The notes beneath the pieces are model-generated. The model ran no database searches and was not told where the DNA came from. It saw only the letters and a program-made list of their open reading frames with translations. The position numbers were made by a program, and so were the translations under genes. Positions 4,780 through 45,627 of a stretch of DNA of 64,000 nucleotides are shown here, piece after piece; within the stretch, counting starts at the first letter, position 1; every line of letters starts with the position of its first letter. Source of the stretch: Mytilus trossulus (lineage: Eukaryota); assembly GCF_036588685.1 (NCBI RefSeq), contig NC_086376.1:95335630-95399629 (forward strand). The letters are read 5' to 3'.

Positions 4780-7700
4780 TTACATATTTACAATTCCTGA
4801 CTGTGCAATAGAATCACTTTTTATCCCAAGAAATATATATGAACATCCTATAGCAAAGGAAATTAAAAAGACAAATAATCCAACTCGATCTAAAACTAAG
4901 GCAAACTGAATCCAGAATTCGGAATCATCATCTCCAGCAAACTGTACAGTCTCTTGACCTTTTGAACTGCCGTTACATTCTGCTTGGCATAACTGGCGTT
5001 TAGTATTATCCTTCAAAAATAAATTATAATTGATTATTATCTTATTTATAAATGTTGGTTTGTTACTTACAAACTTACATCCAAGAGTACTAGTCGATTA
5101 ATATAAAAAATGTTTGTTTATATATTGATTTTTTAATCAATTATAAAACTAATATGAATTCATAAGCAATTGTGCTTCCCTACAGCTCCTACTTAAACGG
5201 TTTATCTTTAAGTTATGAAAATTTACAGCATATATGGTAAAGGATTACATGTCATCAGATCAACATTAGTAAATTTAATTCTTTAAATCTTGATTAAGAA
5301 ATATCAAACTTTAATTGCATTTTAAAGGAATGAATATCTTTCTTCAACTTCAGTTAATAATAAAAAGAGTTTCTTTACATCAAAACAATCAACGACATCA
5401 ACTATTACCTGTTTGCTGGAATGTTGGTTTGGACTTACAATCTTTGGTAGCGTAACACATGTAACGTAGGCAAGTGGCTTCAATATGAATGATTTCAACC
5501 ATGGTGACATTTTCCTATGTCCCCGATGATGTATGTTCAGGACTATCACTTGCCATAATGATGATCCGCCACTCAATACCAATGTAAATGTAAAGAACAT
5601 TGCTGAAAAAATGAATAATTAAGTAGCCTCGGGCAAATCAAAATATAACCGTAAAGATTATTTTAATTAATCACATACGTGTTGTATGTGTCTGAAAAAA
5701 GAGGACGAAAAGATTAATTAGTACGAGTTGCTAAACTTTATATATAAACCTAAATACTTGTAATCTATTTTGTAAAGTATACTTTTATCTCACTGATATT
5801 CGGAAAATATTATTCTCCTTTTTAACTAGCAATATCTCTTACCAATCCACGGTGTGGAATCAGCTGATGGTGGCAACTGATCGGCGACCAATAGTTGGAA
5901 AACTGACATAGCTAACATGACTGTTAGTTCTAACCCAACCTTTTCTCCAGAGTCAACAGGAAGTAGAAACCCAAACGAGGCTACTACTGTTACCAATACT
6001 GATGGAATGATAATATTGGTTATGTAGTAATCAGGTTTTCTTGTTAAATGAATGTAAACGGTGACATCGGGAAATAGGTGAGCGCAACATCCATAATATA
6101 ATTCATGTCTCACTATTGGTGCATTGTCAATTATAAATTCAACGTTTTCTTTCACTGATGATAAATCAGCATTTGATTTCTTGGATGTAACATTTAATTC
6201 GAAACCATTATATACCCAAGATCCAAACATTAAGTCACAAACTTGACGATCAAATGGAAATCTCGACACATCTATTGGACACGAGGCTTCCACCTTTGTA
6301 GGAAAGTTATAGGTGATATTGCCATCAAAATGAATCAAAGCTCTGAAACTATCAAATCCAAAAAATTCTTCCGAAATGCTGAAGATATAAAAAAAATATT
6401 AATCACTTTCACTTTTCATTTTTTGTTAATACTTGTTAGTGATATTCTGTTATTAAAATCAGGATGCAAAATTATTTTTTCACTAAACACGATTTAACTA
6501 CCTTTGACATGTCATATTTTCGGAAAACGCACTTTACACATTAATTTCATTATGTAACTATTGTTTATGAATAGTGTGTATGTATGCTTTAATGATAAAA
6601 CAAAGTTTCAAAAAAGGAATAAGCTACAAATTCGACAGCAAAATATAATGACTTGCAATTCCATAATGTGTGTCAGCTTTGTAAAAAGAGAAACAACGTC
6701 GACACTAGGAATAACCGTTCTTTGACAGATCCGGCGTAAAAAATTCGTTAACATATAACATAATATCAAAGATTTAAACAAAATACGATTTCACATGATC
6801 GCTATTTATATTCATGTTATACATATATCAGATTACACTTTTTTACCGTTGAGTTTTCGTGGTCACCTTAAAAGATAATTATATAACTATATATATATAA
6901 CAGATTAACAGAATTGACTACTGACAATTTCGTGTTCACAACTGTTTCAAAATCGGACGAGAGTTTCTCAGATCTATTGCTTGTCAACCGTGAAGATCTC
7001 TGTGACACTTTAATACCAGAACATCGTTTGTAAGTCCTTAACATATGATATTTCTTCTTAAAACACTGTGAACTGTAAATACTTTTCTAACTTTATAATT
7101 GTACATAATAGTAATGAAAAGTACCAGGATTATAACATAATACGCCAGACGTGCGTTTCGTCTACATTAGACTCATCAGTGACGCCCATGTCAAATTATT
7201 TATAAAGCCAAACAAGTACAAAGTACATAATAAGTGCATTTTTTCTTATGTCATTCTCCTATAGGAGGAAATAAAGTATGTTGATGATGATGACCTTGTG
7301 TAAGTTGGATATACGTGTTAGTATGTTATTAATTAGATTGGATAATTTGAATCAAATCGGTGAATATGAATTTGACATTTAATAAATTAATTAATGCCCT
7401 TTTTAAAAGTTTTTACTTTTCATTTATATCATTACGGATACATAGCCTAAGATGTGAAAATATCCGTTCTATGTAATTCCCTATTCAAATCATTTGATTA
7501 CGTGAGTACTAATAACGATTGCAACATCGAGCGTTGCTCCTTTTATCTTTTGTGGTATACTTAATGGGACCAAACGTCAACCCAAAGTGAATAAATTAAA
7601 GGAGATGTTAAACAGTTGGCTTTTATATTATGTGGTGTAAATCGTTGATGGAATAAGTTCTTTGTAGTTATTTGGTTAACAGGATTTGCTAAATACTAGT

Positions 7701-10693
7701 ATTATATTATTTGTATATGCGTTTCTCTGTATTGGTGATCGTGCGTGTGTCTGTGTTGTATTTCAGGCTCGTAGTGTTTGGTGATATAGTTTAACATTGT
7801 CATAAAGCGGGAGGATTGGAATGGGAGTTCGTTTCTATGTGTGTTTGCGTTTGTTTTTCTTCCCATCTGTATACTCGTTTATCCATTGTTTCCTTTTATA
7901 GTTGATGTGTTTTATTTGTTTTTGTTTGTAATCCAGATTTGATTGGGTTTTTTTTCTCAGTCGATTTATGGTTATTGAACACCGGTATACTACTGTTGTC
8001 TACAATATACTTCCACGAGACAATAACAACAAAACTAAAAGGACACGTAAAAGCCGTCGAAGATACTATTAAAGTGCTATATTTACTTGCAAAAGTTTTT
8101 CCGACCTAAACAATATTAGAGAACAGAAATCTCTCAACCAATTGTAAACTAGGCCGTAGATTGATATATATGAAAACTGCTCACAAAAACTGATATGACT
8201 TTTATAAACTACGAAGATATTTCAAAATATTTTGTTAATAAATAACTGTTGTATAACGCAATTGTTAATACATACCTTTTGAGTAACGCTAATGTCAATT
8301 AATACCTGTTGTATAACGCAATTGCCAATAAATACCTGTTGTATAACGTAATGTCCGGTTTCCATATAAGAGATACCGGAAGTACTATAGACTTGATGCC
8401 GTCAAAAGCATCAGGATCCCAAACAAGGTGACAATCGTTCCATCCCTATGTATACGATAAAAATGTATTTGAACGAAAATGTCATCCAGAAGTTAGAAGA
8501 AAATTCATTACAACTCATAATTTTATTCAAGTAAACAAGGTTTTTGTTTGTTTTAAAGTGGAATACAAATTATAATGTTATTAGCCAAAGGGATGACCTA
8601 GTAACTCTTTTTGTTATTTTTTTCTTGTCTAGGAATATCAGTTATAACTACTCTAAATGGTCTTCGATATCGTACTGATGAGACGAAACGTGCGTCTGAC
8701 GTAAATACAAAATTGTAATCCTGGTTTCTGATGAGTTCATTTAATCGTCGATACTAATGTACATCCTAGAAGTCAGCAATTTTGTTCACATACACATCTC
8801 AGTGATGCAGTTGTCTCTGTATATCATGTATTAAGTTCATTGTGTGGGTACAAAATAGTAACATTTGTTCCTATTATTCCTAATAGTAATCTTTTCCTAT
8901 TCCAACGCACATATTTTGTAATGCAGCTTTGACAACTTTTTTTTAAACTTTTTATTTTTAAAGCCTTATTATTCGTAATAGATGTAGATTTCCAACAGTT
9001 TGATTTAAGCGCCCCTTATTACTCAAATATAGACAATTTCGAGTATGGTGAGCAAAAGTATGAGCCTAAATTCTTTAATGAGTATTTACCAAGGAAGTGT
9101 GTGTCAATTTAATAGACTCAGAGAAATGGTAATGAATGCACCCCTTTAATGTCAATCCGATTCAAGATTTAAATGAATGTTTCGTTAAACGAACCTTATG
9201 TTATTGTTTCGCGGGATTTGTTGTGCGTCCCTAGATTATGTTCCATATGCAGAATTTCAATTGTTTAATTTGCAGATGTCATTCACTCCGTTTTCACGTT
9301 TACCGTATTATTCATTTCACATTAAGTTTCCAATATTCTTAGATTGGATGTACAGTGAAAACTCACCAATCTCATCCATATGTTAAACAGTGCAACTTGC
9401 TCGGGTTCATTCTGAAAGAAATGGTTGAGAAGTAAAGAAAATTACAGAATTAAATACAATTATTTAATAAGTATGTACGATGGGAAGATGGAAACAATTC
9501 AAAAAATAGATTTCAGCAAGCAAGTTTGTTATGATGCTCAAGTGCCACAAGCCAGGGACTATAGTTCTTAAATATGTGTGTTTGCATTTGTTAACTTTTA
9601 ATTTGTAATCAAATTATATATAAGGTATGCTGGATCTAGTATCTATTCATGAAAAATATTTTGTTAACCTACTGCTGTATGAACATTACTGTACTAGAAC
9701 TAATTCGTGCAGACTGTACGAATACATACCAAAGATATTAACTGTCTAATGGCCATGTCAACTGTGACCTGAGTTGTCTCAAATCCAGGACACACTGGTC
9801 GTACACTTGGCTTATAATCGTTGATCAGTGCAGATGTCAGATAGTTCAAGGTTGATGAACATCCTATATTGATGCATAAACAAAAAATAAAATCACAAAA
9901 ATACTGAACTCAGAGGAAACTCAAAGAGGGAAGTTTCAAATCAAATGACAATATCACAAGCTCAAAAATGTCAAACGAATGGATAACAAATGTCATATTC
10001 CTGAATTGGCATGGACATTTTCTTATGTAGAATATGATGGAGTGAACCTGCAGTCTGGCTTCCTAAACCTCGCACTTGTATAACAGTCGGCAACGAAACA
10101 ACGGCAAAGAAAATGTAGAATTAATAACCTAATGTTGAATTTATTTGTTTATATTCTTCCTTTGGACTAAAGTAACATGCTCCAATGTTAACAACGATTC
10201 TCTGCTGATCATTTGAAATAAAAATAAAAAAACAGCTTGTGACTTTTGCAATTTGTTTGTGATGCAAATATAAATAAGGCAAAAAACAGTTTAATTTGTA
10301 ACTCAGTTTCAGAAGTTATATCTACGTACGGTAGGAAACCATATCAGTGATCTTAATACAAATGTATTACGGGTTCTTCATTTTATTTGTTAATGTAAAA
10401 AACTGAACGATAACGTTTAAAATTTAGAATGATAAAACAAAATCAAAACAATAGTTCACAGTTGCATTCAGATGTACACAAAAATATGAATATAAAACAA
10501 TAGAAAAGAACAGTTTTACAATACTAGCATACCACAACAGTTTAATAAAACTGATTAGAAAGGGGTGAAAACTCATATAACATTTACATTAAACTTATAT
10601 AATCGTTTTTCCTCAAATATAATTCTTATAGAACTAACCTAAACGACATATTCCAGTTATAACATAGAGTATTAATCCATGGCGTTTTGACAT
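4780..10693 (-). CDS. Nicotinic acetylcholine receptor alpha-type subunit, alpha9/alpha10-like, paralogue 1 (about 434-440 aa)
   Basis: Exons (GT-AG, phases consistent): 10693-10639 ([18 protein letters not shown]), optional 10550-10533 (VLLNCC), 9863-9730, 9411-9367, 8445-8336, 6378-5843, 5602-5409, 5010-4780 (stop). Cys-loop [15 protein letters not shown], loop [10 protein letters not shown], loop B GSW, vicinal CC (YYGCC), M2 [28 protein letters not shown]4 VLDRVGL. Confidence 0.93.
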
Positions 10694-13664
10694 TGTTTAT
10701 TTTTCTCCTCATATGATGCTCTATATGTCAACTTTCAGATACTATGCCAATCTTCTTACAACAACCAGAACAAAACTTAGGTGTCAATAACCAGGCGTAT
10801 ATAATCGACCTTATTATCATCTACTTATATTCAATATCCCATTAATTATTTCAAATCAAAGGTCAACATGTTTTAGGAGAATTATATAATACCTTTTAGG
10901 ATTTCATGACTCTTTATTAAAAAATCTATACTGTAATACCTTGTAACAACATTGTAATTGCCATTTATTTAAAAAGGAAATGAAGTTTGAAAAGCCCATT
11001 ACTGTGTTTTTCTATACGGCGACCGTCAATATGTTGCAGAACATATGGAGAAATAGATTGGGGTTTACGTGTGGGCTTTGGAAGTTTAGGAACTAACACA
11101 ATCACGTTAAATCCAAAGCAAATGAAACAATTACCGAATATTATATCCGTCTTGTTTCTCGTTACAACTATACAGAAGCGTAATGACTTTATATTTAATT
11201 ATCAGTTTCACAATTCTAATACAAACATAGGTTTCAAAATAAAACATATTTCTCGATTGATACAGTCGATTGTTTTGTTTTATCAGAATAAGGGCTTCTA
11301 CTTGGACTTATTTTTGTCAACATTTTTTTCCAACTCAAACGAACTCACACAAAATCTACCACACAAAAGATATCATCACATATATAGACATTAGTACACT
11401 GATATAATCATAATGGAAACTGAATTTTAGTAATACTAGAACAATAGGAACAGTGAGCTCCTGTAATACTTGCCCTTCTTAAACTATTCTTTGTCAGTTC
11501 TCAGAGATCCGTTAAATTGGGATTAACAATTGTAATTTGTCATAATTAACATTTGGCCTCATATTGACCTTCAGCACTCAATTTCAACTTCGTAGTAAAA
11601 AACCTCCATCAAAAACTTAACTTATCAAAAACTTAAAATTACAATTGGTCATATCAAAATAAAAAGTGTCATTGTTGCAAATCAACACTATTAATCAAAT
11701 GTGTATGTTCAGTAAACTATCAAATCAGTGTCAAAATCGATATTTGACATAATTTTAAAAAATTAATGCCTCACCTTACACATTAGTTTTCACTTTGATG
11801 TGACCACAACGTTTATTTCTGAATGAGGTTTTTTTTCAGACCAATACTAAACTTTGACCTGATATGAGACATGCTAAAGGAGAGATAGACGGACGGATGC
11901 AAATAGCGGTAAACATATTATCTTCTACTATAGAATACGTAGATATAAGCATTTAAAGAGATTGTACGTTGATTTGCATCATGCTATGTGATATGATGGG
12001 TCAATCAACACGGATGATACGTTGGCCTTTAGTAAAGGTGATGACATGTGGGCTTTATTATTGTTGGTAATAAGTTTACCTTAATAATAATGGAGATACT
12101 TTTTTCGATTTACACTAAACAAAAAAGACGGTCAATGAATAGATATCCATTGCCATAGTATAACATAAAGGAAGTAAAACGTGTCTCAAATTCTTGAAAA
12201 TCAACTTTTCTGTTTTCAAATATTTTAACACGAAAAGTTAAGGTTTTCTGTTTTACTATATTATAATTGATGTTAAATCAACCTTTATTCTGATACTATC
12301 TAAATAATTATAGTAAGATCATAGTAAAAGTGTGTTAGAAAATTTCATTAGTTGGTATTGGCTTTGAACTAGCTGACAGTAACTGCGAGTATTGTTAGAT
12401 CAGTACTTAGTGTCTTTTGTTTTATGTTTAAATATCCGTTCATGTCCACTTTGGGTTTTTTTGTTAGATGTATTTCAATATGTTCCCATCTAATGAGTTA
12501 CGCCTTTTTCAATAGATTTTATTAGTTTGTTCTTGTACTGTTACACCACTGTCCCAGGTTATTGTTTGAGCACTCACAAACATATTTAACATCGCCACAT
12601 TATTTATGTGCCGTCCCAAATTTGATACCTTTTGTTCATTGGTTAATGTTTGATATATTTGGGGTTTTTTGGTTAACTATTTATGCTACAAATTACGTCT
12701 AAAGTCTTCTTCGTTGCATTTTGTCATGTTTTTCATGTCGGGACTTTTATAACCGACAATATGGTATGGGTTTTTTTTATAGCTGAAGACCGTACGATTG
12801 CCTTTAATTGCTTACATCCACTTCGTTCGAATATCAATGGATAGTTGTCTCATTGACAATCATACCACATCTCCTTCTTGTTAAATGCAATAAAACTTAC
12901 AATGTTTGATATCTATAAGACCGCAACATGAAAAATAATTAAGAGGATCGAACAGTTCATCGACATGTAAAAAGTAAATTCACAAAAGTTCTGATCTCAG
13001 AGGAAAATCAAATCGGAACGTCCCTAATCACATGTCAAATCAAATGACAAAACACATCAAAAACGAATGGACAAGTGTCACATTCCTGACTTTGTACAGG
13101 CATTTTAAAATGTAGAAAATTGTGTTTTAAACCTGGTTTTATAGCGCTAAACCTCTCACTTTGTACAACAGTCTCGCCAAATTCCGTTATATACCTAACC
13201 GTTTATTTAGCACATACTTACAACTTCTCGTCCAATCAAATTGCTTGAATTTGCCTTCTAATTTTCATAGTACATACTTCTTCCGTGTACTAAGTTACTA
13301 CGCATGAATGACCACAAGGGTAAGATTTCATTGTATTGTAATCAAGATATTAGAACAAAAATTGCAGCTGGCTATTTTGAAATGAATTCTGTGTTCCAAA
13401 TTTAACTAAATAGTTTGTAATTAGTTTTCAGACAGATTTTTAACATCCTACTAATCAATCTAAATTTTGTTTTAAACATACTTTCACCAGCGGCTACCTT
13501 CTTTACATTCTAAAGACAAGGGCCTTTTGAAATCCCAAGTTTACAATGATATTATAGTGAGTAGATTTACAAAATTACGTAAATGAGCTACATCCAGTCA
13601 GTCAACACATATCTATAGACTAATTACAGGATTACTCAAGTTGTAAATATGTGCTAAATTGGAT

Positions 13665-13753
13665 ATTGTATAGAAAGGTATATACTATAAAAATAAGAGC
13701 TAGGGGCACAGCCCCTCGCTCTAATTTTCATAGTATATACCTTTCTATACAAT
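13665..13753. mobile_element. Hairpin core of a non-autonomous element (associated with about 13200-13400)
   Basis: Arms tattgtatagaaaggtatatactat and atagtatatacctttctatacaata are reverse complements, with inner stem agggg-cacag-cccct. The linked segment at 13205-13260 matches 43220-43275. Confidence 0.6.
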
Positions 13754-17504: not shown

Positions 17505-20500
17505 TTAATTGTAAATAATTCCTATAAAAATATACGCGCATCCTGTGACCAATGAAAATAGGAATACCACAAATCCTACTCTGTCTAAAACTAAAGCATA
17601 GTGTATCCATAGCTCTGAATCGATCCTCTCTTTTTCACTTTCAGATGATGTTGAAATCTCTACTTCTTTCTCCTTTGACATTCTTTTTTCGTCCAAAGTG
17701 TTGAACAGCTTGGAAATGATTTTGTCCTTAAAAAATAAGATGATTAAATATTAGGGCGTTAACAGTTACAATTGGATAAATGTGTGTCCTTCAATCAATT
17801 TCTTAATGTAGGTCGCACTTTCACTTTATTTCCTAATGAAGGTCGCACTTTCACTTTATTCCCTAATGTAGGTCGCACTTTCACTTTATTCCCACATTTT
17901 CATTGTTTATAGTTCATGTATATTCTGTCAATACATACAGTTTGTTTCGCAAGTTATTCTTCTATGATATAACGTACTCATTTATAAGAAATTTTCAAAG
18001 GACACGAAAACAGTTCACCGTAAATATACCTCACATCTTTTGGGTATCGAAGCGATATAAAATTTGACAATCTGTATATACCCCTGTTCATTTTTTATAA
18101 CAGTAATTTGAACGTTCATGCCATATTTTTAACTATTTGTGCCCGGTTTATTGCTTTCTCGTTGGCGTTTTTTATATATCTTTTTTTTTATTTGTATTTA
18201 AGTACAAAAAAGACTTTCTCAAATCAGTGTTTGACTAATTTAAGATCAGAATCCTCATTACAAACAAAGTGAAATACTACAAAAGTAAAACAAGTACTAT
18301 ATTAAGACATAAATTATATTCATTATACGGTTGTATTACCTCATTCTGAGATGTTGTATATCTATTTTGTATTCTTGGTAGCTTTACGCACGTGATATGC
18401 GCAAGTGGTTTTAAAAGATAACATTTTGTAAATCGTGACATCGTTCTATCTCCCCTATGGTGAATATTCAAAACCATAACTTGCCATAATGATGATCCAC
18501 CACTTAAAATTAACGTAAAGCTAAAAAACATGGCTGAAATAAGAAAATATTTGACTATTATCACACTAATCATTTATATCAGAGGGATATTTTATGTATC
18601 ATCCAGCCTGTCAGCCCTTATGTCATAGGTTTGAACCCTGCACGCGGACGATTTGTTCGACTTAATCATAACTGAATAAAAAGTAAAATCACAAACATTT
18701 TGCAATTGAAGTCCCGAATAAAATGGCAATATCAAATGGTCAACAGATCAAACGAATGGACAACAACTGTCATATTCCTGACTTGGTACAGGCATTTTCA
18801 AATGTCGAAAATGGTGATTTGAACCTGTTTTTTTATCGCTTAACCTCTCACTTGTATGACAGTCGTGTCAAATTCCATTATTTCAGGTTTTTCTTTGCAG
18901 GTCGATGGTTCTCTCTGGACACTCTAGCTTCCTCCATCAATAACAAACTTGTTACAGGGATAGGCAAAATTTGTCTCTTCAATTTTTTTATTGGGTGTAT
19001 ATAGTCTTGGATTTTTGTGTCACGCAAATATCGATACTACTAAGTATTTATGGGTAAAGACAATCATATATGATTATGTTTTGTAGTTCTAATTGCATCC
19101 TTCAAATTGTCTTCTTTCGCTTTTCTCGTTTGTGCAAGTTAATGTGCTTTATTGTTATGTATTCAAGGTTATTTTTCGGCTATCAAGACTTCTAGCTAAA
19201 ATTACTTGAAATGATTTCCTACAAAAAAAAAGAAGAATAATGAAAATATATGTTCATCGACAACATGGAATAAAGTATACCAAATGTGGTTATTTTTATT
19301 TATATATTTCGGAGTCTTTCTGACATATTCCGTGTTTGGCACAACTTTTTCCTCATTTCCATGCTCAATTTTATTACAGCGGTCATTACTATTCTATATC
19401 GGTAAGACTGTCGGATTTTCAGTGATATAAATTTTATAATTACTAACCAATCCATGGAGTAGAATCAGCTGATGGTGGCAACTTGTCAGCAACAAGCAAT
19501 TGAAACACAGACATCGCCAACATAACTGTTAATTCTAATCCAACCTTCTCGCCGGAATCAACAGGAAGTAAAAACCCAAACGATGCCACCATTGTGATTA
19601 AAAATGATGGTACTATTATATTTGTTATGTAATAAGCTGGTTTTCGTTTTAAATAAATATAAAAAGTCACATCTACAAAGGGTTCCGGACAGCAACCGTA
19701 ATATACTTCGTGTCTTACGTTTGCTGCTTTTTCAACTATCCATTCAACATGTTCTTTCATGGAAGATAAATCGCCCTCAACGTTCTTAGATCGAATATCT
19801 AGTTGTAAACCATTATATGACCATGATCCAAACATTAACTCGCATACTTGACTGTCGAAAGGGAATTTTGCAACGTCAATAGGACACAACGCTTCGATTT
19901 TGGTTGGGAAGTTATAAGCGACATAACCATCTGAATAAATGAGAGCCCTGTAGTCTTTGAATCCATAAAATTCAGCCGAAATGCTACAAAACAATATACA
20001 TGTCAGTGCAAAAACAAATAAAAAATTCATGTTGATTTGATATTGGAATGTAGAGTTTTAGTAACCTTCATCTATAACCTTAAATTCTTTAAACCTTCAT
20101 ATAAGATGTAAAATTATAATGAGAAAAACAAACGGCTTAATTCATAACAATGCAATATCCGTTTTGAATTTTTCTTGGAGCTCAATACTTTTTTAATAAA
20201 ACCAAATATGACCAATATGAATAAACGGCAATCACGCAAATACAGGATCCTAACTTATGACAGACACATTTTGCGGAATCAAACATCTTTCCGAGCGCTC
20301 AATCCTCTCCTAACCTGGGTTAGTGGTGTAACATCATCCATATGAACAAAGTTTAAATATAATTTTCAAATTGCTAAAACATCGGTACAATGCACATAAA
20401 ACAACAAACTTAAAAACGATAACTACAAAGCACCGATATAAAAGTGAAACAGATACCAAAGGGAAAGTCAAACTAGAAAACAAACTGACGATGCCGTGGT

Positions 20501-26645: not shown

Positions 26646-29600
26646 AATTCAAGGAATTGTTTTTTTCTATGCTTAATACTCCACCCTGTACCATCAGTGT
26701 TTTAGTGCATACTCAGAATATAGGTCTAACATAACTATATACGTATGAGAGACCTGTTATCCGGAGCATAAAAATCAAATTCTGCAATCGAGCCAATTAT
26801 CCAGGATTATTGTTGTCATAAAATAATTACAGATGTATTTTAAATGTATAATGCATTATTAACAGTAAACATGCAACTTTAAAGCATACTACATCTTTTC
26901 AATACATCATAGTAATTGATAGCTTTACAACCGCGGTTAATCAATCTATGGATTTTAAACCCGTATTTTTTACTCCTTTTTAAAAAAATTTCATACATAT
27001 TATTCACAGCTAAAAACATTCTACTTTTTATTGAGACATATAATCTAATTTCAATATATTTCTGATATTTTTAGTTAACCTTAAACAAATACGATAATTA
27101 GCTAAACGATCGAAAGTCTTATTGTATTGTATACTGTAAGAAATGTATGTATGTCATAGGTATGTCATAGGTATGTCATAGGTATTATACACTTGAGAGA
27201 AATATGCAGCAAAAAGTCTATGGACAGGTGCTTGATGAATTGATCTTGGTGCCTATACTGTTATAGGCTATAGATCGTTTACTACTGCCTGCTGTTGTCC
27301 ATGCAGAGGGATCTGTTCCGAACAAGAGACACAATTAAATCAGTATGTAGTATATTGATGTAGTAACTAGTAGATATATCTTGATAACTCCCATGTGCAA
27401 ATATAAGAATAAAACAAATACAGACCATCATATATACAGCAATATAGATATGGTTTATTTAATTAAAATTGCATTTTAACTCATGATTCATTCAACAATT
27501 TGTATATACCTATTAAATATTGATTTCAAACTATTTGTATGTTTCAGCAATTTATATAATTTTAAATAAAAAATGTCTCTTAACAAACGATTTCCAATCA
27601 TAACTTTTGATAGCATCAAATACTGTGGGATAATCAACTGTTTATAACCGTTAAATGTGGGACAACCAGAACTGTTTACATATAACATAATGTGGGACAA
27701 TCGGAACTTTTGATGCCAAAAAATAAATTAGGAAAATTAAATTACATAGATATAAGAAGATGTGGTACGAGTGCCAATGAGACCACTCTCCATCCAAGTC
27801 ACAATTCGTACAAGAAAAATCATTGTAGGTAAAAATACGGTATTCAACAGGCGCCTTTGCTCACAACGAACAGCAAGCTTTAAAGCCCCCCCCCCCCCCC
27901 CCCCCCCCCCACCAAAAAAAAAATACTAGTGTAAAACCATTCACACAGGAAAACATTTGTTTTTTTGTTTTTTTAACAACAAATATATACTTTATTCTAA
28001 AGATATCTTGTTACAATTATCTTGTTACAATTATACTTCACTGTCCAAGCATTTGTTCGTATTGTTTGCCAACTACTTCCTTCTGTCTTCCCTTAATTTG
28101 TTCCGTCTAGTGTTGGAGAACACACAATTAGCTGTGTTTTCAAAACACAAACGAAGAAAATAGCAACTTTCTTCGACGGGAAAGAATTTTTTGAAGTTAA
28201 AGAATTATTCAGATGATAGGTGACGACGGAGAGACATATTGACATCTATATAACCTTGTTGTGCAATGTAATGAACAATTAATTATTTGTTATAGACAGA
28301 CATTTCCATATAATAACCGTATTTTCTTTAGAAACTAAGGCGATAAAAAGTGGCAAATGTGCACAACAATAAAGCTAGACAAATCTATGCACTTTCTGCT
28401 CCACTCTGTCACCCGTTCAGCCGTTCACAATAAAAGTCATTCAATGCATTAACGGCGATACTATGGATTTATGATAACTAGCATTATCTGACACGTGATT
28501 TCCCATATATCGAAGTCTATTAACATTCATGTGGACTTTTATTAGACCTAGAAACCGCAAAAGCAGAAGTGACTTAGTCCGGTTTGTAAACCATGATACT
28601 GGATGTGTGATGTATGATATAGATACTGGATGTGTGATTTATGATGTAGTATGAAGATACCAAAAAGGTCACTCAGTTGATTAATAAAATTATGATCCTT
28701 CTCTTATACTTTAACCTTAAAAATAAAATGGATCTCAGTACAATCGTTTTTAAGGGACAAATGTACGTCAAGTTTTGATGTTTTGTTTAACCAATTATTT
28801 AACTATTTTTTTTCGTTTTTAGCTCAAATAATCATGCCCTTTGATATAATGTTCTTAAAGTGTATATTATTTCTTATTCCTTCCAATGCTTGTTGCGCAT
28901 CTCATTTGATAAAGTTGGATTTAAATCTAAATACTAGTAGTTGTATTAATTTACGTTTTTTTTTATTAAGTTAAGCCTTCCAATTGATATATATATAAAA
29001 CGTTAAATCCCGCTGCAAATGTTTGCACTTGTCCTAAGTCAGGAATCTGATGTATAATAGATGTCGTTGTTTATGGTATTTATACGTGTTTCTTGTTTCT
29101 GTTTTTTTATATAGATTAGACCGTTGATTTTCCCGTTTGAATGGTTTTGGGGCCCTTTATAGCTTTTTCTTCGGTGTGAGCCAAGGCTTCGTGTTGAAGA
29201 CCGTACAATGAGCTATAATGGTTTACTTTTATTAATTGTTATTTGGATGGAGAGTTGTCTCATTGGCAATCACACCACATCTGCCTATATCTATTTAAAA
29301 ACAGATTCGTGTTAGAAGCTATTTCGACGCGTCGAAATCTTCCGATGTTACCAGGTAAGTATACATCTTTTATCTTTTATAATTCATAGGTTTATGATAT
29401 TATTCAATTAAATGACGTAATCCTAATAATATGTGCGTGACTTAGCTTATGTAGCTTAATATGTGAATTAATCTTAATTAAGTTTGACTTCAGATGAGAA
29501 TATAATTAACAGTCGTAACAGTTCATGGATTGAACGATTTGGGAATTAATTTCATATAATCATGAAAATCAATATAAAAATGTTGATGTATTAAATAGAC

Positions 29601-29895
29601 AGCGAGACCTTTGAATCTTTGCATTTCAAATTACCTCTGATATGAAACAGCTGCCATCATTAAAAACAACAAAGTAAGTTAAAATATTTAATATAACAAT
29701 AAAAACACTACTTTAAAAGAATCAAACAAGAAAGACTATAGTACATCTTTTTAGTAACATCACAATAGCATATAAAGTACATTTATCCCCTCAGAAACAT
29801 CACAACAGTATTAAAGAAGGACAATGATGCATTCATATTCTGGCACAGTTTAAAATACAATTATTTCGCAAATAATCTATCACGTGACGTGATAA

Positions 29896-30151
29896 AGAAT
29901 CATTCAACCGACAGAATTTTATTCTATTCTATTCTACAGATATAACCAGATCCAATGCTTAAAGATAAAATATCATTCAACTGACTGAATTCTATTAAAT
30001 ATATAACCACATGCAATGCTTAAAGATAAAATATCATTTAACTGACTGAATTCTATTAAAGATATAACCACATCCAATGCTTAAAGATAAAGAATCATTC
30101 AACTGACTGAATTTGATGAAAGATATAACCACATCCAATGCTTAAAGATAA
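29896..30151 (-). repeat. 61-bp tandem repeat derived from the coding end and stop codon of paralogue 3
   Basis: atgcttaaagataa occurs at 29955, 30016, 30077 and 30138 (period 61). The last copy is the real M4/stop sequence. Confidence 0.9.
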
Positions 30152-33100
30152 AAAGAACACCATCATCCCGATTCTGTCTACCATTAAGGCGAGACTAATC
30201 CATAGTTCTGAGTTTTCTGCAATCTCTGCTTCCGGTTCCGATAGACTTATAGATGACGTGTTTCCCAGTTCTTCCTCCTTGTATTTTCTATTCCTGTCCA
30301 GGATGTTGAATATTTTGGCCAATGATTTATCCTTCAAAGAAAAAAAGGCAGATTTATATAATTTATCATTGCAAACTTTTGTAGCTTTGTCTAACGTGAA
30401 CGCAGATGTTTCTGTCGTATGCTAAGCTTAGTCCGGTTTGTATGTAGATTTGTCTGCCGTGTATGCAGCTTTGTTTGTCGTGTACACAGCTCGTCTGCCG
30501 TATGCTTAGGTCAGGCTGTCATTACGTGTTTTTGTTTTTTCGTATTCACAGATAAGTCTGCGATAGTAGTTTTGTCTGTTGTGTACGTTGCTTTGTATGC
30601 CGTGAAAACAGATTTGTCGTTTATGTTGCTTTGTCTGCATTTTAAGTTCTATTTACGCTTATTATAAATATGTATGTCGTATAAAATCTCTACAGAGCTT
30701 ATGTTGTATTGTCATATGCGTTGAATAAATATTTTCGACTTTATGTCTGCCGTGTAGGCAGTTTTGTGCTGTTTGTTCTGTATACAGTTTCGTCTGCAAT
30801 GTTCGCAGCTTGTCTGTCGCGTACTTGGTGTTGTCTGTCGTTTTCGCAGCGTTGTCTATCGTGCACGCAGCTTTGTCTTTCGTGTTCACAACTTTGCCTG
30901 CCTTGCTTGCAGTTTTGTTTGTCCTGTCCGAAGCTTTACCTACTATGTTCGTAGATTTTTTCTCTCGTATATGTAGCTTTGTCGGTCGTTATAGCGGTTT
31001 TGCATGTCGTGAACGTGGCTTTGTCTGCAGTGTTTGCTTATTTAAATACCAATTTGATTGTTTAACGCTTCATACGAACCATATGTTCCCTCGTCAATTT
31101 ATAGTGTACTATTCACTTTAAAATAATAGAAATACATTCTTGGCAACAGTTTTTTGTTTTTACTTTTTCTACTTGCCATTGGACTTTATTAGCTGATGAA
31201 GACAAGTTTAGAAATGGCTATGGACAAAATAGACTTATCGTTATTATTTTCTCGCAGTCGAGACAAATTTCGGATGAGAATATGTAAGAATATAGAAATA
31301 TGAAAGTAAAAACTTGTTTGAATCTTATATCAGTGTACAATATCATAATTCAATAGTTTCGCTTTCACGGAAATTGAATATAATCCTTTAATTTTTTTGT
31401 AATATTGGTCACTGAACATAAACAAACAATTATAGACTATAATGGATATACTTACACATTTCGGTGAAGATTGTTTTACGTAATCGGGTTTTACTCTCGG
31501 AACATCTATCCATGTAAGTCTACCAAGTAGTTTCAATACATAGAATTTTAACCAATGGGGCATGTGTCTATCACCTCGATGATGTAAGTTCAATACCAAC
31601 ACTTGCCAACACGACGATCCACCAGATAACATCATTGTAAAACTAAAAAAGGAGGCTGAAAAAAAACAACATGAAAAAATAAAAAAAAGTATGAAATGTT
31701 CATTGTTCTTATTTTAAATACAAAAGAAAAGAAATATATAAAAAAATTGTTTTGAACAGGATTAAAAAGCAAAAGAAGGTAACATCGCACAATTTAAAGT
31801 TAGTAGGGTCTATAAAGAGGCGTCTTTTAAACCTGTTTAAATTATTTGAATATTTGTGCTTGGTGCTTATACTATGTTTCGTTGGAATTGCATATATACT
31901 GATGTCTATATATTCTATTTTTTCAATTGATGTACTAGTAAATATGCCGATCTCTGAAATGCAATGTAATTTAATGGCAGTAGACAAGTCTTTTGAAAGT
32001 CAAAAGGATTTTAAGTTGTAAGATTGTAGCTTAAATACTTACATATCCACGGTGTTTCGTCAGCTGATGGTGGTAAATGGTCCGCTATCAATAACTGGAA
32101 TACAGACATTGCTAACATCACGGTCAATTCTAAACCAACTTTCTCTCCAGAGTCAGCTGGTAGGAAAAATCCTAGCCCTGCTACCAATGTAACCAGTAAG
32201 GAGGGTATCAGTATATTTGTGACGTAATAGTTTGGTTTCCTCTTTAGATTGATATAAAATGTAACATCCGGATACGGTTCCGGACAACAGCCGTAATAAA
32301 GTTCGTGTCTGATGGCTGGTATGCCTTCAATGATCCATTCTACGTTCTCCTTCACTGAGGAAAGATCTCCTGCACCAAGCTTTGTTGAGAGATCAAGTTC
32401 AAACCCGTTATATGACCATGAACCGAACATCAGAGAACATATTTGGCTATCGTAAGGAAATTTGGCCACCGAAACTGGACATAATGCTTCTATTTTGGAG
32501 GGAAAGTTGTAAGTAACATAACCATCGGGGTAGATATGAGCTCTAAACTTCTCAAAACCGTAGAATTCCTCCGCAATACTGCAAAACAAATTGATAACTT
32601 AGTCTATACCAATCACGTTACAATAAGTAGTTATTTCTACGCATTTCTACCATAAGATATCCATATCAATCAATTCACATAAACAGTATCTGTTTTTTAT
32701 AAAGCTCAATATTCAGGTATGTAGTCCTTTCTTTCTCACAGTGAATATGACTCGTTTCCGAACATTGTAACAAAAAATCCATGAGCATATGTAATAATGG
32801 TAAATTGTAATTATATTGTTTGTTTCAACTTTCTTTAGTGTTGTTATAAATAATTGTTAGTTGCTTGTTTCTTTCTTTTATGGATGTTTCTTTTGATTTA
32901 TATATCAGGAGAGTCGGGTATTGAGAACTTAGTCTTAGATAAAGTTTTCTCAAATATGCAATTTCCTGTACCTTATTTAGACTTATAAATAATAAGACAC
33001 TTATATGTTGTTGTCCATTCGTTTGATGTTTTTGAGATTTTTATTTTGCCATTTGATAAGAGACTTTCCGTTTTGAATTTTCCTCGGGGTTCAGTACTTT

Positions 33101-36100
33101 TATGATTTGATTTTTTTCCATAAGAATAGTACTGATTCCCTGTCTGCATGAGCTACGATGATTAGTTAATATTCCCACGAATTTGCATGCCAGTTTGTTT
33201 GGTTTGTTTGAATGGGTTATTTACATAGATTACATACGTACAATCCACAAACTCAACAAAAACCAGGAATTACATGATTATTGACCGAGATTGTCGAGAA
33301 AAATTACTTGTCTATATTTTTGTGTTCTTCGGTGAATGATGATTAAATTTTCATAGTCTGATTCACAGGCACTTGTCTCAAAAAAAAATTTCCTATATAT
33401 TAAGGTATATAGGAAATTATTTTTTTGAGACAAGTGCCTGTGCCATCTGATTATAGGAAAAAACATTTAGAGACTAAGATATTTCTGTTAACAAATATGT
33501 ATTACCTTTCATAAAGTGTAATATCCGGTTTCCAGATGAGATCTATGGGTAAAACTATAGACTTTGTTCCGTTATAATCGTCAGGGTTCCACTTCAGATG
33601 ACAGTCTACCCAGGCCTATAAAATAATACAAATCACCGTAAGTGTCTTACTCATATTATATTTGTTTAAAATACTTCTAAGACCATGTCAAAATAACAGT
33701 CTTGTGATGGTTCAACGACATGTCATAGACGAAACATAAGCAAAAGATACTGACTGTATTAATTCAGCTAAACCATATTACAAACATCATCGCTGGATTA
33801 TTCCTAAATGGTAATAGACAAACATTTAATCAAGTCACTTGTCAGTAGTCTAGAACATTTTTCAGGGTACCTTTCTTCGAACATTCCTTCGGACACTTTT
33901 ATCTGAGAACAGATCTTAGACCAAATCTTAAGAAACGTTCATCTCAGAACATATCTTATGACACTTTTGTCTTAGAACAGATCTCGGAATATATCTTAGG
34001 AAATGTATATTTTAAAACATATCCGAGGACATTAACTTATACCAGGTCTGAGGAAACCTTTATCTTAGGACACTTTAGCTTAGAACGTATCCTAGGAAAC
34101 TTTTATAATCATACTTTTACTTGTTGGTCTTGTACATCTAGCTACCAATTGTGTTATCATGGTTACTCTTAACTCGACATGTTTACTTACTGTTGATTAC
34201 TTACATCATCTTAGTTATTTAGACGGTGAAATAAAAGTAAATATTTCTATCCAATAAAGGATTGGTTTGGGTACGGAACGACCGGATACCACAACTACCC
34301 TCAAAACTGAATTACAATAGTAAAAAATAAAAAACGTAAAATCTACTAACCAATCGCATCCATACGTTAAACTGTACTGTCTGTTCTGGTTCGTTCTGCA
34401 AGATGAAAGGGAAACAATATGAATGAATGAATCTTTATTGCATTAGCAACAACATTGCTTTAGCATAAAACAAGGTATATACAAATATGACAAATATGAC
34501 AGAATACAGAGAACAATTAAATAGGTTAAATAATGCAGAGATAACTTATAATAATATAAATAATCATATATTAACTGATAATTTGCAATCTTAGTTTCCA
34601 TGCAGCTTTAAGATAATTACATAGATTTTTTGTTAAGCTTTTTGACCCAGCTTGTAACAGAAAAATTAGCTTTCGTGTATTTGGCCATGAACAATAATAC
34701 TTTGGCAAAAAATTACATCTTAGTGATCTATATGCAGGACAAATCAACACAAAATGATATTCATCTTCAATATTATTCATTTTACAACATTTACAAATAC
34801 GATTGACTCTAGGAATATTGTCATAGCGACCTGTTTCTATATATAATTTTAAGCTTCCACTACGTTGTTTTGTAAGTATATTGGTATTAAAATCATATTG
34901 TAAATAATTCTCCATACAAAAATCTAGTTTGAAACATTTATAGATAGACAGTTTTTCACAGGCATTAATACTAGCATACCAGCTTTGATAATATTGATCG
35001 TTGATACGTGATTTAATAAGGTCAAATGACACATTTATGTGATCCTGGTTAATCCATATATAATTCAAACCTAAACTAAACAAAAGGTCTCTTACATTGG
35101 ATGCCCAGTTTGTTTTGCCGTTAGTAGCATCAATACATAAAACTTTATATACATCATACACAATATTTGGTTGGTCCTTAATTAAATGCAACCAATATTT
35201 AACAATTCTATATTTTCTTGAAATACACATCGGAAAGTGTCCGAGTTCACCACATAAAAACAAGATTGGAACAGTTTTACCCAAGTTAAGTATATATCGA
35301 CAAAAACGATTATGAACATATTCTACTTCGTTGGCCCGATGAAATCCCCACACCTCGGACGCATAGTTCAGAACGGATCCAATCATACTATTGAATAAAA
35401 AACACTGTTGAATTGGACCAATGAATTCTCTTTTCATAGAGTTGATCAAAGATGATAGAGCTCTAGCTCCCTGTTGTGCCATTCTTTTTTGAGTTTGAAC
35501 AAATTTGCCATTGAAATGTAGCAGCATACCAAGGTATATATATGATTTGACGATTTCAAGTTCTTGGCCTTCGAAATAAAAATGGTCAGTTACGGGCTTC
35601 CAACCATTGCGAAAAACAACAATTTTTGTTTTGTCCGTATTTACAGTTATATTCCATCTCCTGCAGTAGAATGAAAGTTTATCTAACAAAATTTGCAATG
35701 CATCGGGAGACTTTGCTAGCAGAACTGTATCGTCAGCAAATAATATCAAATATATGAGGTAACCATTAAGTTCGAATATGTCACCATTGTTATCAACTTG
35801 TATATCACTGATTATATCATTTATGAAAAATAGGAACAAGAGAGGAGAGAGTGGTTCCCCTTGTTTCACTCCAAGAAAGTTTACAAACGCATCAGATAAG
35901 CCATCTTTCGTTCTAATTCGTAGACGCACGGTTTCATATACTGCTTTAATAATTGTTATAAATTTTCCACTAACTCCACTTTTTAATAACTTGTATGATA
36001 TGAGATAGCTTTAGATTCGGTTTCACTCTATTTAAAGTGTTTACTTTGACATACATATCAAAATTATAGTTTATTTCTTAACGTGCAACTAAATATTTAA

Positions 36101-38182
36101 ATGTTGAAGTGGGGGGGGGGGGGGTATATAATAAGAACTATTTGTCAAAATTTATAAAGTGCTAAATGAAGAACTATTATTTTTTATTGTATACATATTT
36201 TCTTGTCTTTATTTTGAATAGTGAGTTTAATTATTCTTTAACAAAGTTTTACAATTTAATCCGATTCCCGTGACAACAACAGTATTTGCATTATCGAAGG
36301 ATTTCACTATTTTATATAGTTTGGCCCGAGGACATTACAGTAACTACGATTAAAGTGTGATCAGATTAACCCACATAATTCAGTAATATTATATTCGCTG
36401 CATCACAATGTCTCAAGTGGCCTGCAAGTACATGTAAAAGGGGTCGCTTATACCAAGGATTATTTGTATATTTAAATATACAATTCCTTGCTTATACGGA
36501 GGGCTCAATTATTCGGGTTATTATAAGATTGTGGACAATGATAGAAGAAAAAAAGTAAAATCACAAAAATACTGAACTAATAGGAAAATCAATTCGGAAA
36601 ATCCATAATCAAATGGCAAAATAAAAAAACAAAACGCATCAAAAACGAATGGACAAGAACTGTCATATTCCTGACTTGGTACAGGCATTTTCAAATGTAG
36701 AAAATGGTGGATTAAACCTGGTTCTCTAGCGCTAACCCTAGAACACATTATAAAGAACATTTAATAGTTGTTTCATATTGTCAATTTTAAATAAATATAT
36801 AACTGTTGCTTGGACAGTTTTTCACAATATTTGGAACTGTAAACTGTAAAGCAATGTGTAAATAAATCTATATTTATCGAACATGGTATTGCGTTTAAAG
36901 CAGCCCCAGTGTCTGTTATAGACCACATCCATAAAGAACAATGATGTAAGTCCTTATCAGATTGACTTTTTTACCGTATTCCCAAGCATTTTTACCGTAT
37001 TCCCAAGCATTTTCAGAAAGAGGTACAGGATTTTAATTTCCACTACGCTTATCTTTACAATGTTTGGAACTAACCAATGTTATGAGCTGTCTGACTGCCA
37101 AATCAACAGTAACAGGAACTGTTTCTTTTCCAGGACAAACTGGTCGGACATTAGGTCCGTAATCAGCTAACATGTCCGCTGTTAAATTATCTAGCCTGGA
37201 TTGGGAACCTGTAAAGTACATGTGAATAAGTAATGTTATATATCTTCATCGCTGTTAAATCATCTAATGATAGGAAACCTGTACACATGAAGAAATAATG
37301 ATAAGAGGGACGTTCTTTGTAACGACTAATGAAATTATAAAGAAGCAAGACATAACTTATATAATGGCATTGTCAAATTGTGTTTGGTTTATTAGTTTAA
37401 ATATCCATATGATACCTTTGGCATCTGTTTCCCTCAACAGTTCTTCGTTTGAAAATACGAAATCACTAATACAAAAAACGCATTTGATTATTTATGAAAA
37501 TTCAAAACAATTCTCTGCATTTCCAACTCGACTAACAATTCTAAACAAATAGCCCCACTTTTCCATTGATCAACTTGTCAAAGAAATGTAATATTTTGTA
37601 TTTACTATACAATTATGATTTTTATCAAAATGTTTAACCTGTGCAAAAACATTTCTTTTCTTGGAAAATTAAATATGTCTGACTTACCGAAAGAATCTGA
37701 ACTGCCGGAATCATCAGTAGTTTTGTCATTAATAACTTTACAGAAACCTGTCAATATATTGTAACAAATCGTCAAATCAATAGGTACTTCACAAATATAT
37801 ACAGTAGATCATATCAGGGTGTAATACAGGCGATAGCTAAATACAAATAAATTATATAAAATTAACTCTTGAAAATAATATCTCTTGTGGAGAATAAAAG
37901 AAATTAACTAATGAATGAATGTTTGTTTGGTGTTGTGTTTTTTTGGTTTGTGTGTGGGGTTTTTAACATGAAAACAATCACTTTGACACATTCACCATTT
38001 CTTTCTCGATTTTACTCTCATACAATGTGCTAGGCTTATAAAATGTGTGTATGTTTAGTTTTTATGTGTTTTTGTTGATTTTCTTTTGTTTGTTCTTGTT
38101 AATTTTTACAAAATCACTTACCCAAGTTGCAAGTACAGAAATAAACACATAAAATAACGCTTCCAAATTTTACAACATCCAT
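30095..38182 (-). CDS. Nicotinic acetylcholine receptor alpha-type subunit, alpha9/alpha10-like, paralogue 3 (about 460 aa)
   Basis: Exons: 38182-38122 (MDVVKFGSVILCVYFCTCNL), 37747-37688, 37208-37075, 34395-34351, 33615-33506, 32578-32043, 31655-31456, 30331-30095 (stop); total 1383 nt in frame. Cys-loop CPVSVAKFPYDSQIC, loop C YYGCCPEPYPDVT. Confidence 0.93.
30370..31030. repeat. Degenerate low-complexity subrepeat tract (ttgtctg/gtcgt), probable old TE interior
   Basis: Many imperfect gctttgtc/ttgtctg/gtcgt motifs in the last intron of paralogue 3. They generate several overlapping spurious ORFs. Confidence 0.55.
33364..33442. repeat. Near-perfect 79-bp inverted repeat (hairpin)
   Basis: cacaggcacttgtctcaaaaaaaaatttcctatata-ttaagg-tatataggaaattatttttttgagacaagtgcctgtg. 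Confidence 0.85.
34417..36003 (-). mobile_element. 5'-truncated non-LTR retrotransposon (LINE; RTE-X/CR1-L2-like, clade uncertain) in the intron between the 134-nt and 45-nt exons of paralogue 3
   Basis: Uninterrupted RT frame from about 35995 to 34571. Motifs GVKQGEPLSPLLF and LFADD, plus a C-terminal IETGRY..CKCC..EDEYHFVLIC Zn-knuckle. About 130-nt 3' UTR, AATAAA at 34439-34434, (TTCA)n tail. Candidate 6-bp TSD atatga at 34417-34422 and 35998-36003. Confidence 0.92.
34571..35995 (-). CDS. LINE ORF2 fragment (reverse transcriptase plus C-terminal CCHC-type domain), 5'-truncated
   Basis: The 452-aa ORF 34571-35929 extends upstream in frame through YKLLKSGVSGKFITIIKAVYET. There is no endonuclease domain and no native start. 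Confidence 0.85.
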   Translation of the reverse strand, partial: YKLLKSGVSGKFITIIKAVYETVRLRIRTKDGLSDAFVNFLGVKQGEPLSPLLFLFFINDIISDIQVDNNGDIFELNGYLIYLILFADDTVLLAKSPDALQILLDKLSFYCRRWNITVNTDKTKIVVFRNGWKPVTDHFYFEGQELEIVKSYIYLGMLLHFNGKFVQTQKRMAQQGARALSSLINSMKREFIGPIQQCFLFNSMIGSVLNYASEVWGFHRANEVEYVHNRFCRYILNLGKTVPILFLCGELGHFPMCISRKYRIVKYWLHLIKDQPNIVYDVYKVLCIDATNGKTNWASNVRDLLFSLGLNYIWINQDHINVSFDLIKSRINDQYYQSWYASINACEKLSIYKCFKLDFCMENYLQYDFNTNILTKQRSGSLKLYIETGRYDNIPRVNRICKCCKMNNIEDEYHFVLICPAYRSLRCNFLPKYYCSWPNTRKLIFLLQAGSKSLTKNLCNYLKAAWKLRLQIIS

Positions 38183-45617: not shown

Positions 45618-45627
45618 GGGTAGGGTG

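What the first reader, a model, noticed from the sequence alone, without database searches (positions are those of the whole stretch)
4780..38182. Tandem trio of intact, divergent nAChR paralogues: conserved pore, varying ligand pocket
Seen: three head-to-tail genes about 13 kb apart (536-nt exons end at 5843, 19448 and 32043) have identical internal exon sizes and no disabling mutations. The M2 segment is essentially invariant, while the N-terminus, loop C and the intracellular loop diverge. I saw no obvious intron homology apart from mobile repeats, which suggests old duplications under selection. Known: bivalves have greatly expanded nAChR families, and cephalopod chemotactile receptors arose from tandemly duplicated nAChR-like genes. 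Inference: this is a candidate lineage-specific sensory or peripheral receptor module, possibly co-assembling as heteropentamers.
Basis: partly seen in the sequence, partly recalled or inferred. Interest (0 to 1): 0.7.

Follow-up and report, generated by a model that had tools for sequence, protein, structure and literature searches.

The report
Mussel alpha9-like acetylcholine receptor quartet
Three intact, neighbouring mussel genes, plus a fourth just outside the window, encode nicotinic-receptor subunits that keep the acetylcholine-binding residues and likely form ordinary acetylcholine-gated cation channels; they are one more tandem array of an already published bivalve gene expansion, not octopus-type taste receptors.

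Summary
The observation largely holds: three intact minus-strand genes (460, 450, 434 aa) share 134/45/110/536-nt exons, and non-coding similarity is dispersed repeats. But they are three of four: a non-alpha paralogue (no vicinal cysteines) starts 736 bp left of the window. The 536-nt exon is ancestral (15 of 21 other loci tested). The 'varying pocket' is overstated: W55, Y93, W149, Y188 and CC are kept in all three, Y195 is F in two, and loop C (67-80% identity) is no more variable than the rest of the ectodomain (66-71%). Two genes equal existing RefSeq 'alpha-10-like' models; orthologues exist in other Mytilus species; one gene is shown spliced in three studies. Trees place the trio in a Mytilus-only subclade (13 loci here) of a mollusc-wide alpha9/alpha10-like clade, so they are not 1:1 orthologues of conserved neuronal subunits. 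The predicted fold is nearer alpha7 (Z 32.9, 34%) than octopus CRT1 (Z 23.0, 23%). Verdict: lineage-specific, likely ACh-gated cation-channel subunits of the known bivalve expansion. Repeated rise of non-alpha neighbours makes heteromers plausible but untested. The scan earlier noted intronless mussel nAChR-like genes on other DNA.

The parts
30095..38182 (-). G3: alpha-type nAChR subunit gene, 8 exons (61/60/134/45/110/536/200/237 nt), 460 aa; full aromatic box incl. Y195, vicinal CC
   Evidence: identical to XP_063435459.1
17505..26645 (-). G2: alpha-type nAChR subunit gene, 8 exons (52/60/134/45/110/536/194/222 nt), 450 aa; Y195F
   Evidence: identical to XP_063431629.1; spliced contigs in runs X1, X3, X5
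4780..10693 (-). G1: alpha-type nAChR subunit gene, 7 exons (55/134/45/110/536/194/231 nt), 434 aa; Y195F and an altered loop-C tip
   Evidence: 93-94% identical to M. edulis and M. galloprovincialis proteins
32043..32578 (-). G3 536-nt exon: loop E, Cys-loop, loops B, F, C, M1, M2
19448..19983 (-). G2 536-nt exon
5843..6378 (-). G1 536-nt exon
1..4779 (.). Spacer towards the fourth array member G0 (non-alpha, 402 aa, 7 exons), whose ATG lies 736 bp left of window base 1 (G000:C4:95334894-95324134, minus strand)
34574..36010 (-). LINE-type reverse-transcriptase ORF (478 aa open frame, no complete 5' end) inside a G3 intron
   Evidence: Pfam RVT_1 E=3.2e-16

Best explanation
G1-G3 are intact, intron-rich alpha-type nicotinic receptor subunits from a Mytilus-specific branch of a mollusc-wide alpha9/alpha10-like clade, and they likely form acetylcholine- (or choline-) gated cation channels, as homopentamers or mixed with each other and with the adjacent non-alpha gene G0. 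Shown: gene structure, integrity, orthologues across Mytilus, purifying selection, clade, splicing of G2, retention of W55/Y93/W149/Y188/CC and of a cation-type M2 (E-1', no inserted proline, V13', acidic 20'). Inferred from established nAChR knowledge: a quaternary ammonium binds the aromatic cage at the subunit interface, loop C closes and the L9' gate opens to Na+/K+ and probably Ca2+. Inferred: the fixed paralogue differences (Y/F195, position 150, loop-C tip, loop E 109/111/117) tune affinity and kinetics without changing ligand class, and the divergent short intracellular loops give different trafficking or regulation. The shared M2 would let any mixture of the three keep the same pore.
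For: Models complete and in frame; G3 and G2 equal RefSeq alpha-10-like proteins. Box residues and CC present in all three. alpha9/10-like marks shared with fish alpha10: R57, YGCC, Q15', polar residue at 119 (numbering recalled). Best solved relatives by sequence and fold are alpha7 and muscle/neuronal alpha subunits. dN far below dS in the ectodomain (0.20-0.26 versus 1.5 to saturated) and pN 0.02-0.04 in M2. G3 pocket residues identical at 21 of 21 positions in three Mytilus species. Fused M. edulis gene models hold G3+G2 and G1+G0 loop-C motifs on one contig, so the linkage is conserved. Spliced G2 contigs in three studies. Tandem nAChR arrays are common in bivalves: 55% and 65% of genes in two species (PMC6896357). 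Vicinal CC changes state 3 times on the subclade tree, each non-alpha gene lying in or near an array of alpha genes.
Against: No ligand was tested. Keeping the aromatic residues does not guarantee ACh gating: Alpo4 keeps most of them and does not respond (PMC10338036 passages), although it lacks the CC that G1-G3 have. The subclade has long branches, G2' instead of S2', a charged 4' residue and short intracellular loops (82-95 residues versus about 120-160 in alpha7-like rows), so properties may be non-canonical. The link to vertebrate alpha9/alpha10 is unresolved at the base of the tree. Tissue unknown; co-expression and co-assembly not shown.
Confidence: 0.72

Rival explanations
1. The array is a peripheral chemosensory module: the channels sit in gill, palp, mantle or foot epithelium and read water-borne quaternary-ammonium or alkaloid cues (choline, betaine, algal products), working like nematode DEG-3/DES-2 more than like octopus CRs.
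For: Lineage-specific expansion to 13 loci in three arrays; repeated non-alpha partners; fixed pocket differences between paralogues; bivalve gill has the highest nAChR expression although ChAT is low there (PMC6896357). An aromatic cage suits choline/betaine as well as ACh (established knowledge).
Against: Pocket no more variable than the rest of the ectodomain; no sign of diversifying selection; the pediveliger-enriched 'Chrna10' of M. coruscus maps by its primers to another locus (L024) and the 'Chrna9' primers match none of G0-G3.
Confidence: 0.15
2. They are CR-like receptors that have left the ACh ligand class and detect hydrophobic surface molecules by contact.
For: Tandem duplication of nAChR-like genes in a mollusc; CR-like clades are reported in bivalves (PMC13174522 section 3.4).
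Against: Aromatic box and CC intact; 6-7 introns whereas CRs are described as intronless; CRT1 Z 23.0 (rmsd 2.9, 287 aligned, 23% identity) and CRB1 Z 22.8 (rmsd 3.2, 310 aligned, 20%) versus alpha7 Z 32.9 (rmsd 4.1, 380 aligned, 34%). Intronless genes of the same genome that lack W149/Y188/CC are the better analogues (4 of 4 such loci aligned).
Confidence: 0.04
3. They are functionally redundant dosage copies with canonical pharmacology, kept without specialisation.
For: Near-identical pore and core binding residues.
Against: 60-65% protein identity with saturated dS, yet each paralogue is kept and 89-97% identical across Mytilus species, with paralogue-specific residues fixed.
Confidence: 0.09

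Closest known systems
Bivalve nAChR expansion by tandem duplication (Jiao et al. 2019, PMC6896357; read parts 1-4 of 6 of the text)
   Same: Lineage-specific tandem array of intact LBD+TM genes in a bivalve; stepwise duplication; 151 matches to this exon in this genome, a lower bound.
   Different: This array belongs to the intron-rich, alpha-type part with conserved ACh sites (13 of 132 oyster genes in that paper), not the intronless majority of arrayed genes; Mytilus was not sampled there.
Vertebrate alpha9/alpha10 nAChR (CHRNA9/CHRNA10)
   Same: R57, YGCC loop C, Q15' in M2, polar loop-E 119, one long exon from loop A to the end of M2; same side of the tree as alpha9/10 against alpha7 and beta-type rows (99/94); an alpha + weakly active partner pairing is the textbook case (recalled).
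   Different: Not 1:1: mollusc clade does not group directly with fish alpha9/10; 6-7 introns versus 4 (PMC6354393 section on exon-intron organisation); E4' and G2' in M2; N instead of D at 119; much shorter intracellular loop.
Mollusc-wide 'alpha-10-like' clade incl. a cDNA-cloned Aplysia subunit (AGI03854.1) and single or few-copy oyster, scallop and pearl-oyster genes
   Same: One clade at 100/100 with the YNFP loop E and mostly E/Q at M2 4'.
   Different: Mytilus subclade expanded to 13 loci with 3 changes of the vicinal CC; abalones expanded a different branch. Which Lymnaea/Aplysia letter name or MolluscaGenes clade (Alpha-A10a/b, nAChR-L) applies could not be determined.
Cephalopod chemotactile receptors CRT1/CRB1
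   Same: Pentameric nAChR fold; tandem, lineage-specific origin in a mollusc.
   Different: CRs do not bind ACh, have a remodelled hydrophobic pocket under positive selection and are described as intronless (PMC11526382 and PMC13174522 passages); here the pocket is intact and identity is 20-23%.
C. elegans DEG-3/DES-2
   Same: Neighbouring nAChR genes that co-assemble and sense choline/betaine (function recalled); a model for the rival reading.
   Different: Distant in sequence (180 and 169 bits versus 253 for alpha7); no evidence of orthology.

Membership tests
alpha-type nicotinic acetylcholine receptor subunit | Signal peptide, Neur_chan_LBD with C-x13-C Cys-loop, four TM helices | tested here: met
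   (pLDDT 86 for the G3 orthologue P0006)
alpha-type nicotinic acetylcholine receptor subunit | Vicinal cysteines in loop C | tested here: met
   G1-G3 YGCC; absent in G0, which is therefore non-alpha
alpha-type nicotinic acetylcholine receptor subunit | Aromatic box W55, Y93, W149, Y188, Y195 (alpha7 numbering, recalled) | tested here: met
   All five in G3; Y195F in G1, G2 and G0; F at this site also in crab, shrimp, Mercenaria and other Mytilus rows
alpha-type nicotinic acetylcholine receptor subunit | Cation-type M2: E-1', no -2' proline insertion, hydrophobic 13', L9' | tested here: met
alpha-type nicotinic acetylcholine receptor subunit | Gated by acetylcholine | not testable with these tools
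   needs electrophysiology
Vertebrate alpha9/alpha10 orthology group | Clade with CHRNA9/10 to the exclusion of other subfamilies | tested here: inconclusive
   Same side as alpha9/10 against alpha7 and beta-type rows (99/94) but base unresolved; no 5-HT3 root
Vertebrate alpha9/alpha10 orthology group | Four-intron gene; 1:1 orthology | tested here: not met
   6-7 introns versus four (PMC6354393); many-to-few relation
Cephalopod chemotactile receptors | Loss or remodelling of ACh-binding residues | tested here: not met
   CR feature from PMC13174522 and PMC11526382 passages
Cephalopod chemotactile receptors | Intronless coding sequence | tested here: not met
   7-8 exons; G2 spliced
Cephalopod chemotactile receptors | Placement in the CR or CR-like clade | not tested
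   No CR sequence was available for the trees; structure alignment gives 23% (CRT1) and 20% (CRB1) identity versus 34% to alpha7
Cephalopod chemotactile receptors | Positive selection concentrated in the pocket | tested here: inconclusive
   Per-domain dN well below dS and pocket not hypervariable, but dS is near saturation and no site model could be run
Cephalopod chemotactile receptors | Expression in sensory epithelium; gating by hydrophobic ligands | not testable with these tools
   run tissues are coded
Bivalve tandem nAChR expansion (Jiao 2019) | Lineage-specific paralogues in tandem arrays | tested here: met
Molluscan anion-selective nAChRs | PAR-type motif replacing GEK before M2 | tested here: not met
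   GEK in G0-G3; motif rule from PMC13174522

The most novel reading that the evidence does not exclude
Mussels built a combinatorial receptor kit of about 13 alpha9-like subunits in three arrays, evolving non-alpha partner subunits three separate times; mixed pentamers from this quartet sit in surface epithelia and sense water-borne cholinergic-type cues, a second, pocket-conserving route from nAChR to sensory receptor in molluscs.
Probability: 0.12. Interest if true: 0.65.

Novelty: new member of a known kind. Interest (0 to 1): 0.22.

Why it matters
As it stands it is one more array of a published expansion, with two genes already in RefSeq. Its use is practical: a small, intact, intron-rich set (three alpha genes and one non-alpha gene with a near-identical pore) is a tractable place to start de-orphaning bivalve nAChRs, to ask how non-alpha subunits arise, and to test sensitivity to neonicotinoids or algal nAChR antagonists. 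It would matter more if the channels proved epithelial and gated by environmental amines.

Tried and rejected
Run search: 24 runs listed, none on record as RNA and tissues coded, so no tissue evidence. Second lay: the last three G3 exons had no real cover in the 4 runs laid, which were chosen by G2; no evidence either way. Small-RNA run X23 gave no depth on exons. G1 had one 240-nt contig piece over its last exon among the pieces shown; splicing not shown. CRT1/CRB1 were not among the 60 rows shown in the sequence searches of solved structures for G3 or for an intronless Mytilus protein, so that control did not discriminate. Gene conversion as cause of M2 identity rejected (synonymous sites saturated). 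Pseudogene or assembly-duplication readings rejected (open frames, 60-65% identity, orthologues in other species). More array members: none found in window 38301-64000, 30 kb to the right or about 38 kb left of G0. Link to larval settlement: M. coruscus Chrna10 primers hit L024 (2-3 mismatches), Chrna9 primers hit none of G0-G3 or the 60 loci. LG07.g1055 of that paper carries the same NR name as OPL33219.1 in G0's cluster (TPM 40.9 trochophore, 3.3 pediveliger, 19.7 juvenile) but identity with G0 could not be established. Letter name of the Aplysia relative not found. Complex prediction was not run: nAChR subunit pairs would pass by likeness to solved pentamers and a pentamer exceeds the size limit. 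Allard 2023, Kang 2023, van Giesen 2020 and van Nierop 2005 were not held; the MolluscaGenes supplement was unreadable and may hold the clade name and CR-like members. No paper on this array was found in searches; subscription journals are not covered.
Full report
Observation. Six-frame translation shows three sets of nAChR exons on the minus strand. Splice-exact models give G3 (38182-30095; 8 exons 61/60/134/45/110/536/200/237; 460 aa), G2 (26645-17505; 52/60/134/45/110/536/194/222; 450 aa) and G1 (10693-4780; 55/134/45/110/536/194/231; 434 aa), all in frame with GT-AG introns. Self-comparison of bases 1-40000 finds collinear similarity at exons and their immediate flanks only; the rest is dispersed repeats. 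G3 and G2 are letter-for-letter identical to proteins that NCBI labels 'alpha-10-like [Mytilus trossulus]'. Paralogues are 60-65% identical; orthologues in M. edulis, M. galloprovincialis and (G2, G3) M. californianus are 89-97% identical. No M. californianus orthologue of G1 was among the hits.

Surroundings. The genome search with the G3 exon returned 151 matches (276 candidates, 150 scored; lower bound) and showed a fourth gene immediately left of the window. G0 has 7 exons (46/146/45/110/536/173/153), 402 aa, is intact, 46-48% identical to the trio, and lacks the vicinal cysteines. No further member was found to the right or beyond G0. Fused M. edulis models carry G3+G2 and G1+G0 loop-C motifs on one contig, so the linkage is conserved. 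Nine close relatives lie at C4:2.15-2.48 Mb (7) and C3:70.4 Mb (2). Of 40 match loci fetched, 21 with this exon type were tested and 15 have a 536-nt AG/GT candidate (not checked against transcripts), so shared exon size is ancestral.

Divergence pattern. Among G1-G3, identity is 95-100% in M2, 66-71% in the ectodomain core, 67-80% in loop C, 25-42% in the intracellular loop and 29-36% at the N-terminus. A fish/newt alpha7-like pair gives 100, 76, 60, 43 and 53%, so the profile is generic and loop C is, if anything, better kept here. Nei-Gojobori estimates: whole CDS dN 0.28-0.37, dS 1.9 to saturated; ectodomain dN 0.20-0.26; M2 pN 0.02-0.04 at pS about 1.0. These ratios are rough because dS is near saturation. 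W55, Y93, W149, Y188, C190/C191, R57, N119 and D164 are invariant (alpha7 numbering recalled, anchored on an alpha7-like row). 13 of 21 pocket positions are identical in all three versus 108 of 188 ectodomain columns; the eight differences are 150, 192-194, Y/F195, 109, 111 and 117. M2 reads E-1', G2', E4', L9', V13', Q15', D20', a cation-type pore by established rules. Four intronless or long-ORF Mytilus loci used as outgroup lack W149, Y188 and CC.

Phylogeny. A quick tree of 117 rows (four partial or aberrant rows, three fused models and many near-identical fish rows left out), a careful tree of 63 and a mixture-model tree of 29 agree: the trio is a clade (100/98; 97/94) inside a clade whose named rows are all Mytilus (100/99; some rows unnamed), sister to oyster, pearl-oyster and scallop genes, inside a mollusc-wide clade (100/100) that includes an Aplysia cDNA product (AGI03854.1). 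Against alpha7 and beta-type rows this clade falls on the alpha9/alpha10 side (99/94), but its nearest neighbours are unresolved. G0 is not the trio's sister; vicinal CC changes state 3 times in the 29-row tree, which with a CC-bearing outgroup means three losses. No CR or Lymnaea sequence was available for the trees.

Structure. The AlphaFold2 model of the 97-98% identical G3 orthologue P0006 has pLDDT 86. Against 48,161 representative chains the best match is alpha7 (Z 32.9, rmsd 4.1, 380 aligned, 34%); CRT1 scores Z 23.0 (rmsd 2.9, 287, 23%) and CRB1 Z 22.8 (rmsd 3.2, 310, 20%), below 5-HT3, GluCl and Alpo4. Foldseek and phmmer also rank alpha7 and muscle alpha first.

Expression. Contigs of runs X1, X3 and X5 (three coded studies) join G2 exons across introns exactly as modelled; the X1 contig of 1558 nt covers four listed exons with a 154-nt unlisted part matching the 45+110 exons. 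Tissue is not given. The pediveliger-enriched Chrna10 of M. coruscus (PMC9957406; passages and supplement rows seen) maps by primers to another locus.

Mechanism. Most likely (0.72) these are ACh/choline-gated cation-channel subunits, homomeric or mixed, with G0 as a possible structural partner; ligand, partner and tissue are inferred, not shown. A peripheral sensor of water-borne amines (0.15), plain redundancy (0.09) and a CR-like hydrophobic-ligand receptor (0.04) are the rivals. The caveat that an intact aromatic set need not mean ACh gating comes from Alpo4 (PMC10338036, passages), which however lacks CC.

Comparison with the literature. Jiao et al. 2019 (PMC6896357, parts 1-4 of 6 read) report 99-217 nAChRs in bivalves, 55-65% in tandem arrays including three- and four-gene arrays, highest expression in gill. 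MolluscaGenes (PMC13174522, passages and section 3.4) finds bivalves enriched in Alpha-A10a/b clades and describes CRs as intronless with modified ACh sites; its supplement could not be read. Pedersen et al. 2019 (PMC6354393, passages and the exon-intron section) give four introns for CHRNA9/10. CR properties come from review passages (PMC11526382); the primary CR papers were not held. Searches found no paper on this array. Verdict: real, intact, lineage-specific, but a new member of a known kind; interest 0.22.

Noticed in passing
G000:C4:95334894-95324134 (L001/L002): Fourth array member G0: intact non-alpha subunit that lacks CC but keeps W55, Y93, W149, Y188 and F195; intracellular loop only about 61 residues; orthologues in three other Mytilus records sets.
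   Followed up: yes
G000:C4:2145582-2255558 (L045-L056), C4:2.479 Mb, C3:70.42-70.44 Mb: Sister arrays of the same subclade: six genes in 110 kb (one inverted; one non-alpha with a 3-residue loop-C deletion), another non-alpha gene 220 kb away, and a pair on C3. M2 4' varies E/Q/V/I among them.
   Followed up: partly
window 32043-32578, 19448-19983, 5843-6378 (M2): Glu at M2 4' is shared by most of the mollusc-wide clade and by some nematode rows, where alpha7 and alpha9/10 have Gly; role unknown (5-HT3A has Lys at 4', recalled).
   Followed up: partly
window 29938-30153: A 61-bp tandem repeat (3.5 copies) duplicates the last 18 codons of G3 into the 3' flank; the downstream copies match the orthologues' C-terminus slightly better than the used copy does.
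   Followed up: no
window 34574-36010: LINE-type reverse transcriptase open frame (478 aa, Pfam RVT_1) inside a G3 intron, same strand as the gene.
   Followed up: partly
window 52091-55622 (+): Exons of another gene: Thr/Ser-rich mucin-like stretch followed by Ig-like domains (weak Ig_2 hit, E=0.0014).
   Followed up: no
window 40393-42717, 43901-44635, 44750-46840, 56511-64000: Satellite arrays of 86 bp, 106 bp, about 20-40 bp and a 69-bp array of at least 7.5 kb that runs off the window end.
   Followed up: no
L004:1946, L002:1097 (+), L003:5623 (-): Three copies of a small predicted secreted protein with a signal peptide, short Asp-Gly-rich repeats and basic cleavage-like sites, left of G0.
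   Followed up: no
L024 (G000:C4:26.5 Mb): A non-alpha nAChR gene that the M. coruscus 'Chrna10' qPCR primers match; that transcript is pediveliger-enriched in PMC9957406.
   Followed up: partly
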